Below the pieces are notes generated by a model. The model worked only from the letters and a program-made list of their open reading frames with translations. It had not been told where the DNA came from and ran no database searches. Positions 36,017 through 38,399 of a stretch of DNA of 38,532 bases are shown piece by piece. A program made the translations under genes and the position numbers. This DNA comes from a virus. Each line of letters opens with the position of its first letter. Within the stretch, counting starts at the first letter, position 1. The stretch lies in the IMG/VR virus record IMGVR_UViG_3300045988_167100. One strand, given 5' to 3'.

Positions 36017-36076
36017 GACATTTTATATGAATTATGATAATAAAAAATAAGAGAAAAAGTTTGTTTATTTTGCACA

Positions 36077-36105
36077 TTGAAATAAGAACATATGTTCTTT
36101 ATAAT
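36077..36105 (+). promoter_or_regulatory. Promoter TTGAAA-17-TATAAT with an embedded LexA (Cheo) box aGAACATATGTTCt
   Basis: TTGAAA 36077..36082, TATAAT 36100..36105. The 16 bp perfect palindrome aagaacatatgttctt (36084..36099) fills the spacer. GAAC-N4-GTTC is the Gram-positive SOS box core. Confidence 0.75.
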
Positions 36106-36213
36106 GCAAGTAAATAAAAAACAGACTTGAAACGTTGGGACGAAAACAAGCCTGTTTACCTTAATTAAGATATATATATTATATCATATTCCGACATTTT
36201 ACGTCAAATTATA

Positions 36214-36241
36214 TTGAATAATTAGACGAGTGTAATATAAT
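36214..36241 (+). promoter_or_regulatory. Second possible promoter TTGAAT-16-TATAAT
   Basis: TTGAAT 36214..36219, TATAAT 36236..36241. It overlaps the first ATG of the maximal ORF, which favours the 36270 start. Confidence 0.45.
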
Positions 36242-36269
36242 GGAAGAAAAAATGTTGGGAGAGAGAAGA

Positions 36270-37328
36270 ATGGCTAATGACAACATATATCGTTACACAA
36301 TAGAGACAATAGAAAATTATTATCCAAGAATAATGAAAATAAAAATGGCTAATAATTTAATACGAGATGGAATTGCTACAAAAAACAAGAAAGAAACAGA
36401 TAAAATTTTTGTGGGTGACAAAGAGGATTATAATAGAATTGCTTTTTGTTTAGAAAAAGACAGTCGATTAATAAAATATATTGAAAATTGGGAATATGAA
36501 AAATATTTTAAATATTCAACATATATGCAATTATCAGATGGATTAGATATTAAAAGTATTATAGAAGAATGTCTTGCGAGAAATGTAATATCTGTTTTTG
36601 ATCCAAATGGCGAGCCAAACGAATTAGAAAAAACAATTGCACATCCAATCATGAAAGAGGATGAAACTTACTATTATTTGAAATTTGTAACTCAATTAGA
36701 AACGATAGATACAACTGGAAAACAAAGAATGAAAAGAAATGTTGCATTGATTTGCATTTCAAAGTTAACAAAACTTATTGAAGTGAGATTCGATGTCATG
36801 GAAGCTATTTTTTTAGTAGATAGAGAAAAATATATAAAAAATCTAATAGCTTGGATAAAAACATATATAGATAGGAATGCAACAAATCTTGATTTAGCTG
36901 ATATTATAGAAGATATAAGGGTAAATGGAGAAAATGACGGTGTGATTGTTGCTGAACAGCATATGGAAATGGCAACAGGTGGAGCTGCAACGGTTTCAAT
37001 AGGAAAAAATGAAAATAAACAGCTGCCTTTTATGTCAGAAATTAAGGCTATAATGGATACTTATGAAAAGGAATTGAATAGTGTACCAGAATTAAAAAAA
37101 GCATTGGATGAGTTCTTGTATGAGAAAGAAGAACTTTCGATATATCCTTGGATAACATTTTTATTTAAAAAGTATAATTTTGAAGTAAAGTTCACAATGA
37201 ATTATAATGGGTTAGGGATAGATTTGTTACAACATTATTCAAGCACAAGACAAGAAAATGTGGGAAAGGAGAGAATGGAGCATGTTACAAATCACATTAT
37301 CAGTGTTGGAGAGCGTATTAAAATCTAA
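36270..37328 (+). CDS. Unknown protein, first gene of the right-end cassette (352 aa; the maximal ORF from 36240 gives 362 aa)
   Basis: ATG 36270 sits 8 nt after GGAG. AT-rich. I see no recognisable catalytic or nucleotide-binding motif. Confidence 0.6.
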   Translation: MANDNIYRYTIETIENYYPRIMKIKMANNLIRDGIATKNKKETDKIFVGDKEDYNRIAFCLEKDSRLIKYIENWEYEKYFKYSTYMQLSDGLDIKSIIEECLARNVISVFDPNGEPNELEKTIAHPIMKEDETYYYLKFVTQLETIDTTGKQRMKRNVALICISKLTKLIEVRFDVMEAIFLVDREKYIKNLIAWIKTYIDRNATNLDLADIIEDIRVNGENDGVIVAEQHMEMATGGAATVSIGKNENKQLPFMSEIKAIMDTYEKELNSVPELKKALDEFLYEKEELSIYPWITFLFKKYNFEVKFTMNYNGLGIDLLQHYSSTRQENVGKERMEHVTNHIISVGERIKI

Positions 37329-37641
37329 TGATATAGATGATGAAAAAGTCAAAATTTTTTGTGACATGTTATTACATTATAGACCTGGACAATGGATTTA
37401 TCCAGGGGCTTTTAAAAGAAAAACACATATATCTATTGAAAAAATATATATTATTTTTGATGAACTGGAGAAAAGAAATGTTTTAGAATCGTATTTTGAA
37501 GTAAACTGTGGTGAATGCAAAAAAATGTTAGGAGAGGTTTATAAAACATTAATTGAGATACCAGAGGAGATATATTGCGATAATTGTAAAAAGTATATTG
37601 CTGCAAAGAAAAATACGTATTTAATATATAAGGTATTATAG
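37282..37641 (+). CDS. Small wHTH-like / zinc-ribbon protein (119 aa)
   Basis: ATG behind AAGGAGAG. Overlaps the upstream gene by 47 nt. NCGECKK...(22 aa)...YCDNCKK forms a CxxC pair. Confidence 0.6.
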   Translation: MLQITLSVLESVLKSNDIDDEKVKIFCDMLLHYRPGQWIYPGAFKRKTHISIEKIYIIFDELEKRNVLESYFEVNCGECKKMLGEVYKTLIEIPEEIYCDNCKKYIAAKKNTYLIYKVL

Positions 37642-37643
37642 AT

Positions 37644-38399
37644 ATGGGAATAAGTTCTGAAGATGTTGATGTATTTGAATTGGCAAAATTATTAAATAAT
37701 CTTGAACATAAGATAGCACCATTAAGTACTATAAGTTGTTTGGATCCAAAACATAAAAATCGATTTGTTGAAATGTATAACCAATGTGAAGATATTAATG
37801 GAGTAACAGAATATAAGGGGTTGTCTCAGGCAAAAACAACAAGAAAAAAAGGACAAATATTAGAGCTACTATTAAAAAGTATGATTGCTTACACAGGGGA
37901 TATATTTGAATCTTATGAAAACCTAGGAACATCTACCAATGAAATAGATTTATATTTAAGAGTAAGAGAAAAGTATAAAGTGTTCTTAGGGAATGTTATT
38001 GATCAAAGGTATAAAAATATAATTTGCAAATGTAAGAATTATCAAGATCAAGTAGGTGTTACATATATAGGAAAATTTTATAGCCTAATTAGCATATCAC
38101 ATAAAAATGTTGCAATATTAGTTTCATGGAAAGGAATAGGCGGAGAGGGATGGAATGATGGAGTGGGTTTAGTGAAAAAAATATACATGCTTCATGAAAA
38201 AAAAGAGGATAAGATATATATCATAGATTTTAACAAGAAGGATTTTCAAAGAATAATTAATGGGGAATCATTGTTGTCAATTTTAGATAAAAAATGTGAA
38301 GAACTAGAAAATGATATATCATTTGCTCAATATATAGATAGACATCCAAACCAAAACGAGTTTGAGAGTAAAATACAAAAAATATTACAGGAATCTTAA
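37644..38399 (+). CDS. PD-(D/E)xK (Mrr/restriction-endonuclease-like) nuclease-domain protein (251 aa)
   Basis: KGQILELLLKSMI...TSTNEIDLYLRV...NIICKCKNYQDQVGVTYIGKF...VAILVSWKG follows the Mrr_cat order (helix, D, (E/Q/C)xK, trailing strand). Starts 2 nt after the upstream stop. Confidence 0.55.
   Translation: MGISSEDVDVFELAKLLNNLEHKIAPLSTISCLDPKHKNRFVEMYNQCEDINGVTEYKGLSQAKTTRKKGQILELLLKSMIAYTGDIFESYENLGTSTNEIDLYLRVREKYKVFLGNVIDQRYKNIICKCKNYQDQVGVTYIGKFYSLISISHKNVAILVSWKGIGGEGWNDGVGLVKKIYMLHEKKEDKIYIIDFNKKDFQRIINGESLLSILDKKCEELENDISFAQYIDRHPNQNEFESKIQKILQES

What the first reader, a model, noticed from the sequence alone, without database searches (positions are those of the whole stretch)
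36017..38399. SOS-gated three-gene cassette after the lysin: unknown protein, wHTH/zinc-ribbon protein and PD-(D/E)xK nuclease, the strongest candidate for a novel system
- **Layout.** This is an AT-rich island downstream of the lysis cassette and its hairpin, at the extreme right end of the phage, which is a classic accessory or defence hotspot. The three genes are tightly coupled: a 47 nt overlap, then a 2 nt gap.
- **Gene A (352-362 aa).** I can recognise no motif.
- **Gene B (119 aa).** It pairs a small helical, wHTH-like N-terminus with a CxxC...CxxC zinc ribbon.
- **Gene C (251 aa).** It follows the Mrr-type nuclease order (ELLLK helix, NEIDL, CKCK).
- **Leader.** The cassette has a LexA-box promoter, a possible second promoter, and a structured 5' leader (aaacagacttg...caagcctgttt, 36119..36157).
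- **Interpretation.** A nuclease effector with a putative nucleic-acid-binding partner and an unknown large subunit under SOS control does not match any named defence, TA or antirepressor system I know. Plausible roles are abortive infection or superinfection exclusion triggered by DNA damage, inter-prophage warfare during induction, or host or competitor DNA degradation to aid replication.
- **Symmetry with the left end.** The other genome end carries a second Mrr-type nuclease module, so both accessory arms flank the terminal repeats.
Basis: partly seen in the sequence, partly recalled or inferred. Interest (0 to 1): 0.85.

Follow-up and report, generated by a model that had tools for sequence, protein, structure and literature searches.

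The report
Three-gene DNA-clamp and nuclease prophage cassette
At the right end of this Roseburia phage sits a real, widely conserved but unnamed three-gene cassette (a DNA-clamp-like protein, a small DNA-binding zinc protein and a DNA-cutting enzyme) that is most likely an anti-phage module, although the cutting enzyme in this copy carries a mutation in its active site.

Summary
Genes A (36270-37328), B (37282-37641) and C (37644-38399) exist, are coupled (47-nt overlap, 2-nt gap) and lie in a 27% GC island after the endolysin terminator.

- **Co-occurrence:** the trio appears in the same order in 83 of 91 loci found through C; five of the other eight are cut by contig ends. Hosts include Lachnospiraceae, Clostridium, Staphylococcus and Streptococcus. 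Sites include several phage positions and non-phage chromosomal spots.
- **A:** no sequence family, but a confident model (pLDDT 95.9) resembles the RdgC/CENP-N DNA-clamp fold that lambda RexA shares.
- **B:** winged helix plus a conserved four-cysteine zinc ribbon.
- **C:** an Mrr-type PD-(D/E)xK nuclease. The family motif is D102...E129-x-K131; this window alone has K129.
- **Leader:** conserved in at least ten Roseburia-type phages ahead of eight or more different cargoes, three of them soluble-plus-membrane pairs built like RexAB.
- **SOS control:** the LexA-like box belongs to that slot, not to the cassette (3 of 73 upstream regions), and a second box-free promoter lies next to the genes.

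PADLOC, Pfam and NCBIfam name no system. Best reading: an undescribed nuclease-based exclusion module. Function is untested.

The parts
35986..36016 (+). Intrinsic terminator hairpin closing the lysis operon; left boundary of the exchangeable cassette
   Evidence: A 13-bp stem followed by a T-run. It is conserved in homologous leaders. Divergence from a sister phage drops from about 15% to under 1% just downstream of this point.
36077..36105 (+). Promoter P1 (TTGAAA-17-TATAAT) with a LexA-type box GAACATATGTTC (36086-36097) in the spacer
   Evidence: The promoter scores 11 of 12 in the scan. This is the only GAAC-N4-GTTC in the window. The box is kept in 9 of 10 homologous leaders with variable N4 and variable flanks. 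LexA binding was not tested.
36119..36157 (+). Conserved stem-loop around the invariant core AACGTTGGGACGAAA (36131-36145)
   Evidence: All five sequence variants fold into the same outer stem plus apical CGU/ACG stem. Stem positions change in a compensatory way between variants. There is no Rfam match. Its function is unknown.
36160..36169 (.). Invariant 10-bp palindrome CTTAATTAAG
   Evidence: It is identical in all 10 aligned leaders. It is a candidate operator for an unknown dimeric regulator; this is inference.
36214..36241 (+). Promoter P2 (TTGAAT-16-TATAAT), directly upstream of the genes and with no LexA box
   Evidence: It was found by the promoter scan. The -10 element TAGTATAAT/TAATATAAT is invariant across leaders, including L004, which lacks P1.
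36249..36269 (+). Conserved 5' UTR and Shine-Dalgarno (AAAAATGTTGGGAGAG); it repeats the GTTGGGA of the hairpin loop
   Evidence: It is conserved up to the start codon of every cargo. ATGTTGGGA at 36252-36260 is a one-mismatch copy of ACGTTGGGA at 36132-36140.
36270..37328 (+). Gene A, 352 aa: RdgC/RexA-fold putative DNA-binding clamp or sensor
   Evidence: - **Family size:** 221 cluster representatives, all about 340-390 aa, with no fusions.
- **Sequence families:** no Pfam, NCBIfam, PADLOC or PDB sequence hit. PHROG 17559 is of unknown function.
- **Structure:** the AF2 model has pLDDT 95.9 and pTM 0.92. Foldseek top hits are RdgC 2owl (E 1.4e-4, prob 1.0, TM 0.37-0.42), then CENP-N, CENP-L and Chl4, and a viral 'recombination-associated protein'.
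37282..37641 (+). Gene B, 119 aa: winged-helix domain plus CxxC-19-CxxC zinc ribbon
   Evidence: - It overlaps A by 47 nt.
- The four Cys residues are conserved in at least 53 of 59 distinct homologues.
- The family profile hits eS25 (3.6e-5), Fur (1.2e-3), Z-alpha and RPC6 winged helices.
- Members hit the Pfam families Zn_ribbon_10, DUF7836, FUR and TrmB.
37644..38399 (+). Gene C, 251 aa: Mrr_cat-type PD-(D/E)xK nuclease with helical N- and C-terminal extensions; catalytic-motif mutant in this window
   Evidence: - 22 of 23 family members hit Pfam Mrr_cat, best E 1.9e-7. The window copy scores 17.2 bits, below the cut-off of 21.
- E74, N99, E100, D102, C130, K131 and K144 are invariant in 66 distinct sequences.
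38028..38030 (+). Codon AAA = K129, replacing the family-invariant catalytic Glu of the ExK motif
   Evidence: - 65 of 66 distinct homologues have E at this position; only the window has K.
- This is the only difference from the common R. inulinivorans allele P0187.
- The sister contig L056 differs from the window's gene C by this single nucleotide.
- The K129 allele occurs in 9 contigs, so it is not a lone sequencing error.
38415..38532 (.). Right arm of the 118-nt perfect inverted repeat with 1-118; not part of the cassette, but marks its right boundary
   Evidence: The repeat was found. Homology to integrated prophages stops at 38417, after which those prophages continue into host DNA.

Best explanation
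A-B-C is a self-contained, horizontally mobile three-protein module carried as accessory cargo by temperate phages and other mobile elements of Firmicutes. It most likely acts as a nuclease-based phage-exclusion (defence) system.

**Proposed mechanism (inferred)**
- A forms a dimeric clamp or horseshoe of the RdgC/RexA type. It binds DNA and reports an abnormal DNA state, such as invading linear DNA or replication and recombination intermediates.
- B, a winged-helix and zinc-ribbon protein, adds DNA contact or acts as the adaptor or brake between A and C.
- C, an Mrr-type PD-(D/E)xK enzyme, cuts DNA once released or activated.
- The logic matches lambda RexAB, with the membrane channel RexB replaced by a cytoplasmic nuclease.

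**Expression in this phage**
The module is plugged into a conserved expression slot after the endolysin. A LexA-box promoter (P1) would add SOS-dependent transcription on top of a proximal promoter (P2).

**What is shown and what is inferred**
- Shown: the genes, their coupling and co-occurrence, the folds and motifs, and the shared leader with swappable cargo.
- Inferred: complex formation, DNA sensing, defence, and LexA control.
- In this window the nuclease carries E129K, so this copy is probably catalytically impaired.
For: 1. **Strict co-occurrence.** A, B and C occur in the same order, with overlapping or abutting reading frames, in 83 of 91 loci found through C. Five of the remaining eight are truncated by contig ends. 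The trio is present in S. aureus phietaviruses and C. tetani phages.
2. **Behaves as an autonomous cassette.** It is found after the lysin, between capsid genes, before the terminase, next to IS66, inside a polysaccharide locus beside AAA_21+RloB, beside a resolvase and an SLFN-type helicase, and in plain chromosomal context.
3. **Recent exchange.** The leader and A-B-C are under 1% diverged between phages whose endolysins differ by about 15%.
4. **Shared slot.** The same leader precedes at least 8 cargoes. Three are soluble ~300-aa proteins paired with ~4-TM proteins, like RexAB. The others include an NA37 protein and a PDC-S02-like candidate defence protein.
5. **Fold of A.** The model resembles RdgC, CENP-N and CENP-L. 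This is the fold reported for lambda RexA, a non-specific DNA-binding dimer (PMC11077077). RexA-type sensors without sequence similarity have been recognised by structure alone (PMC12894663).
6. **Nuclease motif of C.** The motif is invariant across the family.
7. **Position.** In integrated R. inulinivorans prophages the cassette is the last phage DNA before the host flank.
Against: - There is no functional data of any kind.
- PADLOC 2.0 has no model for A, B or C.
- The fold match of A is moderate: TM 0.37-0.42. Lambda RexA (8TWQ) is in the library but not among the top 50 hits.
- Profile comparisons of A with RdgC, lambda RexA and the Jekyll 'RexA-like' protein are all negative.
- Enrichment next to known defence genes was sampled, not measured.
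- Mrr_cat domains also occur in non-defence contexts.
- This window's nuclease has a mutated catalytic residue.
Confidence: 0.5

Rival explanations
1. A split, modification-dependent (type IV, Mrr-like) restriction system. B supplies the winged-helix DNA reader that is fused to the catalytic domain in classical Mrr. C is the catalytic subunit. A is a sliding clamp that delivers them along DNA. The system would cut modified DNA of incoming phages.
For: - C is an Mrr_cat-type nuclease.
- B has a winged helix.
- No methyltransferase is part of the conserved trio. That fits a modification-dependent enzyme that needs no self-protection.
- Classical Mrr has an N-terminal winged helix plus a C-terminal catalytic domain; this is established knowledge.
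Against: - No similarity of B to the Mrr_N domain was detected.
- A third, larger, strictly conserved subunit and a zinc ribbon are not features of known type IV enzymes.
- C carries its own conserved N- and C-terminal extensions.
Confidence: 0.15
2. A tripartite toxin-antitoxin or addiction module that stabilises the mobile element. C is the toxin nuclease. B is the small DNA-binding antitoxin and autoregulator encoded just upstream. A is an accessory factor.
For: - The order 'small DNA-binding gene then nuclease gene', with a 2-nt gap or overlapping stop and start, is typical of type II TA pairs.
- The module lies on mobile elements and at prophage ends.
- A point mutation in the catalytic motif, as seen here, is what one expects when a toxic gene is disarmed.
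Against: - A is as strictly conserved as B and C and is the largest component, which a simple TA pair does not need.
- The wild-type allele is extremely common and intact: at least 1000 contigs.
- This rival is not exclusive with defence, because many TA systems defend against phage.
Confidence: 0.15
3. A phage lytic-cycle function switched on by SOS. An RdgC-like modulator of RecA and recombination (A) works with a nuclease (C) and its partner (B) to process or degrade host or competitor DNA during induction.
For: - A LexA-type box overlaps P1 and is conserved in the Roseburia-phage leaders.
- RdgC inhibits RecA functions, including LexA cleavage (cited in PMC11077077).
- The genes follow the late operon.
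Against: - The box belongs to the slot, not the cassette: 3 of 73 upstream regions carry it.
- The same leader drives unrelated cargoes.
- P2 has no box.
- The trio occurs outside prophages and at other positions within phages.
- Closely related phages carry other cargo instead, so the trio is not needed for the lytic cycle.
Confidence: 0.1
4. A selfish homing-type nuclease cassette. The nuclease with its DNA-binding partners promotes its own spread between phage genomes and gives no benefit to the host.
For: - The cassette appears at several different positions in unrelated phage backbones.
- It is nearly identical between diverged phages.
Against: - In the Roseburia phages the exchanged unit includes a leader shared with many nuclease-free cargoes. 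Exchange is therefore explained by recombination at the conserved leader and terminator.
- No repeats or target duplications flank the trio.
- Three conserved proteins is unusually complex for a homing element.
Confidence: 0.05

Closest known systems
Lambda RexA/RexB exclusion system, and structure-defined RexAB-type systems (e.g. P. putida PP_5643-5644)
   Same: - It is prophage-encoded accessory cargo.
- The first gene encodes a ~300-350-aa cytoplasmic protein of the RdgC/RexA/CENP-L-N fold class, thought to clamp DNA.
- Sister phages carry soluble-plus-4-TM gene pairs behind the very same leader. One of these is annotated RexA-like in Roseburia phage Jekyll (PMC11077077; PMC12894663).
   Different: - There is no membrane partner; A, B and C have no TM segments.
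- The presumed effector is a PD-(D/E)xK nuclease, accompanied by a winged-helix and zinc-ribbon protein.
- A gives no Pfam RexA hit and no profile similarity.
- RexA 8TWQ is not among the top 50 structural matches.
E. coli RdgC (recombination-associated, ring-shaped DNA-binding dimer; PDB 2OWL) and phage RdgC homologues
   Same: - It is the best structural match to the A model, over about 338 aligned columns (E 1.4e-4, prob 1.0).
- A shows the same alternation of beta-sheet domains, with a two-helix insertion between strands.
- RdgC genes are common in phages: 432 phage records.
   Different: - TM is only 0.37-0.42.
- There is no sequence or profile similarity.
- RdgC acts alone, not in an operon with a nuclease.
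- RdgC homologues in the phage collection are mostly from Proteobacteria, whereas the A family is from Firmicutes.
Mrr-family type IV restriction endonucleases (Pfam Mrr_cat PF04471)
   Same: The catalytic core order is helix-E, D, then ExK. Pfam Mrr_cat is hit by 22 of 23 family members.
   Different: - The DNA-binding winged helix is on a separate protein, if it is equivalent at all.
- There is an extra conserved A subunit.
- C has its own conserved N- and C-terminal regions.
- The window copy scores below Pfam's cut-off and has K in place of the catalytic E.
Two-component 'DNA-binding partner + nuclease' defence systems such as Hachiman HamAB or KELShedu
   Same: The logic is a DNA-surveying partner that restrains or licenses a PD-(D/E)xK-type or metal-dependent nuclease. 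This is taken from the abstracts of PMC12278908 and 10.1101/2025.09.13.674623, listed.
   Different: - None of A, B or C has a helicase or ATPase.
- No PADLOC model of these systems matches.
- There are three components.
- The resemblance is functional analogy only.

Membership tests
Rex (lambda RexA/RexB) exclusion systems | RexA-family sequence (Pfam PF15969) | tested here: not met
   A has no Pfam hit at E<=1. Lambda RexA scores 1e-97 against the same library. hhalign of the A profile against lambda RexA gives probability 1%.
Rex (lambda RexA/RexB) exclusion systems | Polytopic membrane partner (RexB-like) encoded next to the sensor | tested here: not met
   B and C have no TM-like segments. 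The partners in the sister two-gene cargoes have about 4.
Rex (lambda RexA/RexB) exclusion systems | RexA/RdgC-type two-domain DNA-clamp fold | tested here: inconclusive
   Foldseek returns RdgC, CENP-N, CENP-L and Chl4, the fold class to which PMC11077077 assigns RexA. RexA itself (8TWQ, present in the PDB copy) is not in the top 50, and TM scores are about 0.4.
RdgC family (Pfam PF04381) | Sequence or profile similarity to RdgC | tested here: not met
   None of 113 A-family members hits a Pfam RdgC model. hhalign against E. coli RdgC and against a 9-sequence RdgC profile gives probability below 1%.
RdgC family (Pfam PF04381) | Ring-forming dimer that binds DNA | not testable with these tools
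   No multimer prediction or biochemistry was available.
PD-(D/E)xK nucleases, Mrr_cat type | Match to the Mrr_cat profile | tested here: met
   22 of 23 family members match at E<=0.01, best 1.9e-7. The window copy alone is sub-threshold: 17.2 bits against a cut-off of 21.
PD-(D/E)xK nucleases, Mrr_cat type | Catalytic D...(D/E)xK residues present | tested here: not met
   The family has invariant D102, E129 and K131 in 65 of 66 distinct sequences. The window has D102, K129 and K131, so the motif is incomplete in this copy.
Named anti-phage defence systems (PADLOC-DB 2.0) | Any component matches a system model | tested here: not met
   A and B have no hits. C has only a spurious 16.7-bit match to Cas2a with no matched stretch passing the threshold. 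Newer catalogues such as current DefenseFinder could not be searched.
LexA (SOS) regulon, Firmicutes type | GAAC-N4-GTTC operator overlapping a promoter | tested here: met
   The box lies at 36086-36097, inside the P1 spacer, and is conserved in 9 of 10 homologous leaders. It is absent upstream of most A homologues.
LexA (SOS) regulon, Firmicutes type | LexA binding and DNA-damage induction | not testable with these tools
   This needs EMSA, reporter or RNA-seq data.
Type II toxin-antitoxin modules | Toxic effector neutralised by the adjacent small protein | not testable with these tools
   Only the gene order and coupling are compatible with this.

The most novel reading that the evidence does not exclude
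A-B-C founds an undescribed class of defence system: a 'cytoplasmic-effector Rex'. A RexA/RdgC-fold DNA clamp senses infection-associated DNA and, through a winged-helix and zinc-ribbon adaptor, licenses an Mrr-type nuclease instead of a membrane channel.

In Roseburia phages it rides on a conserved plug-in expression dock that exchanges at least eight different exclusion cargoes between phages. The dock consists of a terminator, a LexA-box promoter, an invariant hairpin, a palindrome, a second promoter and a Shine-Dalgarno sequence.
Probability: 0.35. Interest if true: 0.8.

Novelty: new variant of a known kind. Interest (0 to 1): 0.6.

Why it matters
- **An unnamed, widespread module.** If the trio defends against phage, it adds a module spanning several Firmicutes families that includes gut commensals and S. 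aureus phages. The R. inulinivorans allele alone is seen on at least 1000 metagenomic contigs.
- **A handle on Rex sensing.** It would link the long-puzzling RexA-type sensor to a soluble nuclease effector. That makes 'what does a RexA/RdgC-fold protein sense?' testable by a simple DNA-cleavage readout rather than by membrane depolarisation.
- **A discovery tool.** The conserved leader marks a cargo slot in Lachnospiraceae phages. It can be used as a search handle for further accessory or defence genes, most of which currently have no annotation.
- **A natural control.** The E129K allele in this window is a ready-made catalytic-site mutant for comparison with the common allele.

Tried and rejected
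- **First model of A.** The AlphaFold run used a 7-sequence alignment and gave pLDDT 58.5. I discarded it. The 113-sequence alignment gave 95.9.
- **Sequence routes to name A.** All were negative: Pfam, NCBIfam and PADLOC, Pfam on 113 members, and the PDB sequence profile. hhalign was also negative against lambda RexA, the Jekyll RexA-like protein, E. coli RdgC and a 9-sequence RdgC profile.
- **PDB sequence profile for C.** It gave only designed helical repeats. The nuclease assignment rests on Pfam and the motifs.
- **The search for related loci with the A alignment.** It failed because no stretch was conserved enough. I seeded with C instead.
- **The 15-mer scan of viral contigs.** It gave 81 hits, about what chance predicts. 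Only those with flanking similarity were kept.
- **RNAalifold on the hairpin.** MAFFT gaps put it out of register, so it was uninformative. Single-sequence folds were used instead.
- **Long-range pairing in the leader.** A pairing that would mask the Shine-Dalgarno sequence is not supported by the Jekyll sequence, by direct reading. I did not adopt it.
- **Rfam.** It found nothing in 35900-38532.
- **tblastn '100% identity' of L056 to the window's C.** This was rounding. L056 has E129.
- **Literature searches.** Searches for an RdgC/RexA-nuclease system, for S. aureus prophage hotspots and for Henu2 found no description of this trio.
- **Phage CI operator hypothesis for the GAAC box.** I rejected it. 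The box occurs once in the window, not at the repressor/cro region, and is conserved across phages.

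
Full report
**What is in the sequence**

The region holds three plus-strand ORFs: A 36240..37328, B 37258..37641 and C 37644..38399.

- **Start of A.** Homologues begin at the equivalent of ATG 36270 (MANDN...). The DNA upstream of that ATG, including a GGGAG Shine-Dalgarno, is part of a leader shared with unrelated genes. A is therefore 352 aa, 36270-37328.
- **Start of B.** The family start corresponds to M9, at 37282, giving 119 aa.
- **Composition.** The island is 27-28% GC against about 40% for the phage body.
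- **Position.** It follows a holin, an Amidase_3 endolysin and a strong terminator hairpin at 35986-36016.
- **Nothing else found.** There is no tRNA and no Rfam family in the region. The opposite strand holds only short ORFs of at most 74 aa.

**The trio is a conserved unit**

- tblastn found A and C together in S. aureus phietaviruses (Henu2 gp12-14, between endolysin and integrase). It also found them in C. tetani phages (phiCT9441A genes 75-77, after the endolysin and before attR).
- I seeded on conserved C peptides and collected 46 loci from reference genomes and 45 from IMG/VR. I then searched their ORFs with HMMs of A, B and C.
- 83 of 91 loci have all three genes in the order A-B-C. 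Five of the other eight are cut by a contig end. Three are real exceptions: L014, L086 and L099.
- A/B overlaps are typically 44-110 nt. B/C junctions are -11 to +1 nt.
- Hosts are mostly Lachnospiraceae and other Clostridia. Staphylococcus, Streptococcus, Lysinibacillus, Desulfosporosinus and Peptacetobacter also appear.
- An exhaustive profile search gave 221 cluster representatives for A. All are about 340-390 aa, and none is fused to another domain.

**Where the cassette sits**

- Inside phages it lies after the lysin (this window, Henu2, phiCT9441A), between a minor capsid gene and an AAA_15/21 ATPase plus D12 methylase (L004-6), or between RusA-region genes and the small terminase (L007-9).
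- Outside recognisable prophages it lies in four kinds of setting:
  - next to an IS66 element and a lysozyme/CHAP gene (L183);
  - inside a polysaccharide locus beside AAA_21+RloB (L185/6);
  - beside a resolvase, an SLFN-type helicase and a Fic gene (L198);
  - among housekeeping genes (L187, L199).
- The exact proteins of this window belong to Roseburia inulinivorans (WP_349222827-9). The common C allele is on at least 1000 contigs of up to 665 kb.
- In integrated prophages the trio is the last phage DNA. Host cotJ/Mn-catalase genes start about 50 nt after the stop codon of C.

**The three proteins**

*A*
- A has no hit in Pfam, NCBIfam, PADLOC or PDB sequences, even when all 113 aligned members are scanned. 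PHROG 17559 is of unknown function.
- With a 113-sequence alignment, AlphaFold2 gives pLDDT 95.9 and pTM 0.92.
- Foldseek against the PDB ranks E. coli RdgC first: E 1.4e-4, probability 1.0, 338 columns, TM 0.37-0.42. CENP-N follows, and CENP-L and Chl4 appear lower in the list.
- Against viral models, the top hit has probability 1.0, and a 'recombination-associated protein' appears at rank 13.
- The crystal-structure paper on lambda RexA reports that RexA shares exactly this RdgC/IML3/CHL4 fold and binds DNA non-specifically (PMC11077077). A P. putida prophage system was recognised as RexAB-type from structure alone (PMC12894663).
- The fold assignment is moderate, not strong. TM is about 0.4, RexA 8TWQ is not in the top 50, and four profile comparisons were negative.

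*B*
- B has a winged helix. The family profile hits eS25 at 3.6e-5 and Fur at 1.2e-3, and also Z-alpha and RPC6. Members hit Pfam TrmB and FUR.
- It also has a CxxC-19-CxxC ribbon whose four cysteines are kept in at least 53 of 59 distinct homologues. The S. aureus version has lost them.

*C*
- C belongs to a family in which 22 of 23 members match Pfam Mrr_cat, best E 1.9e-7.
- E74, N99-E100-x-D102, E129-C130-K131 and K144 are invariant in 66 distinct sequences, with one exception: the window has K129.
- That G-to-A change (codon 38028-38030) is the only difference from the common R. inulinivorans allele. It is the only nucleotide difference from the sister contig L056 across gene C.
- The K129 allele is present in 9 contigs. 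It is therefore a real, rare allele.
- From established knowledge of PD-(D/E)xK enzymes, the acidic residue of the (D/E)xK motif binds the catalytic metal. The allele should thus cripple catalysis; this is inference.
- None of the three proteins has a TM-like segment.

**The leader is a shared expression slot**

The 36054-36267 stretch is 71% identical to DNA after the endolysin of Roseburia phage Jekyll. There it precedes a gene annotated RexA-like and a membrane protein. A scan for the invariant 15-mer, filtered on flanking similarity, gave further phages.

Ten leaders align from the terminator to the start codon. Behind them lie at least eight cargoes:
- A-B-C (twice);
- three different pairs of a ~300-320-aa soluble protein plus a protein with ~4 TM segments;
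- an NA37 nucleoid-associated-type protein;
- a PDC-S02-like candidate defence protein;
- two unknown single proteins.

The conserved elements, in order, are:
1. the terminator;
2. a GAAC-N4-GTTC box with variable N4 and variable flanks, in 9 of 10 leaders;
3. a stem-loop around the invariant AACGTTGGGACGAAA, with compensatory stem changes and the same predicted fold in all five variants;
4. an invariant CTTAATTAAG palindrome;
5. a second promoter with an invariant TATAAT;
6. a short UTR, AAAAACGTTGGGAG, that supplies the Shine-Dalgarno sequence.

Divergence between the window and the sister phage L056 falls from about 15% in the endolysin to under 1% from about 36000 onward. The leader and cargo have therefore been exchanged recently as one block.

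**SOS control**

- The box matches the Firmicutes LexA operator consensus (established knowledge) and overlaps P1. Its conservation in the leaders supports function.
- It is the only such box in the window, so it is not the operator of the phage's own CI-like repressor.
- It is a property of the slot. Only 3 of 73 distinct regions upstream of A homologues have one.
- The L004 copy of A-B-C retains only the hairpin-to-SD part with P2.
- P2 would give LexA-independent expression. 'SOS-boosted' is therefore a fairer description than 'SOS-gated', and neither was tested.

**Interpretation**

Six lines of evidence point to a mobile exclusion or defence module:
- strict three-gene linkage;
- mobility between unrelated backbones and chromosomal islands;
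- a position at the prophage edge;
- a slot shared with Rex-like pairs and a candidate defence gene;
- a DNA-clamp-like subunit;
- an invariant nuclease motif.

The most economical mechanism is Rex-like sensing of DNA by A, coupled through B to DNA cleavage by C. The main rivals are a split Mrr-type modification-dependent restriction enzyme, a tripartite toxin-antitoxin module, an SOS-induced lytic-cycle function, and a selfish homing cassette. The first two overlap with defence. The lytic-cycle idea is weakened by the non-phage locations and the swappable cargo.

No tool available here could test complex formation, DNA binding, cleavage or protection.

**Novelty**

None of the libraries I could search names this trio, and literature searches found no description. 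I could not query the newest defence catalogues.

I rate it a new variant of a known kind: a prophage-borne, nuclease-based exclusion cassette with a Rex/RdgC-fold partner. Interest is moderate to high. It is tempered by the absence of functional data, the moderate fold evidence for A, and the mutated nuclease in this copy.

Noticed in passing
window 38028-38030 (gene C codon 129): The window's nuclease has K where all 65 other distinct homologues have the catalytic Glu of the ExK motif. It is the only difference from the very common R. inulinivorans allele. The variant recurs in 9 contigs, all apparently of the same ~38.5-kb element.
   Followed up: yes
window 1-118 and 38415-38532: The window ends in a perfect 118-nt inverted terminal repeat. 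An independent ENA contig named k119_228027 (38,534 bp) has the same ends, and 118 = k-1. The repeat therefore probably marks where both ends of the unique sequence enter one inverted repeat in the assembly graph, not the physical termini. Homology to integrated relatives stops at 38417, exactly where the repeat starts.
   Followed up: partly
window 411-3240, minus strand: The left arm reads CI-like repressor (HTH_3 + Peptidase_S24, 2494-3240), then a 446-aa protein with a C-terminal Mrr_cat domain (1148-2485, E 8.5e-25), then a DUF3800 protein (411-1136). This layout resembles lambda cI-rexA-rexB. It looks like a second accessory module, probably expressed in the lysogen.
   Followed up: partly
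window 36131-36145 and 36252-36260; loci L003, L004, L120, L121, L175 and others: The invariant hairpin-loop sequence AACGTTGGGACGAAA repeats the GTTGGGA of the Shine-Dalgarno region about 120 nt downstream. Both are conserved in every leader. A GGA in a hairpin loop plus a GGA at the SD resembles CsrA-type translational control sites. That resemblance is recalled from memory and was not tested.
   Followed up: partly
L003, L116, L120, L121, L142, L172, L175 (IMG/VR and Jekyll loci, downstream of the shared leader): At least seven other cargoes occupy the same slot. Three are soluble-plus-4-TM pairs. The others are an NA37-family protein, a PDC-S02-like protein and two unknown proteins of 302+ and 408+ aa. 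Almost none has a Pfam, PHROG or PADLOC annotation.
   Followed up: partly
window 35201-38417 versus L056, L200 and L203: There is a mosaic boundary. The endolysin is about 15% diverged from L056/L200, but the leader and A-B-C are under 1% diverged. L203 is 97.5-98.5% identical to the window over the tail and lysis regions, yet it is integrated next to host cotJ genes. The window has no integrase among the ORFs scanned.
   Followed up: partly
window 1123-1146, 12949-12972, 17858-17881, 30770-30793, 35739-35762: Five copies of a palindromic motif (A)GTTGCACCGGTGCAAC(T) are scattered through the genome. One lies inside the endolysin gene, and two copies are 100% identical over 24 nt. Their purpose is unknown.
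   Followed up: no
window 3949-5944: There are three copies of a 36-nt RBS-plus-start block (GAGAGGAGATGAGTAAAGATGAAGAAA) and a 59-nt repeat pair (5120-5178 / 5886-5944, 92% identical). This suggests a small family of duplicated early genes.
   Followed up: no
window 7669-8469, 9978-12143, 16187-16852: Early-region genes include a rolling-circle-type Rep domain (REP_ORF2-G2P), a 721-aa PcfJ-like protein and a DUF4417 protein. No integrase or protelomerase domain was seen in the ORFs scanned.
   Followed up: no
L004-L006, 9240-11820: In another phage the A-B-C cassette is followed by an AAA_15/AAA_21 ATPase and a D12-class adenine methyltransferase. Together they form a small accessory island inside the structural gene block.
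   Followed up: no
P0006 (229 aa) and P0018 (328 aa): Two database proteins join fragments of A or C to unrelated sequence: a Trans_reg_C response-regulator domain and a membrane protein. They sit on contigs of 778 and 4,684 nt. They look like assembly or gene-calling chimeras rather than real fusions.
   Followed up: no
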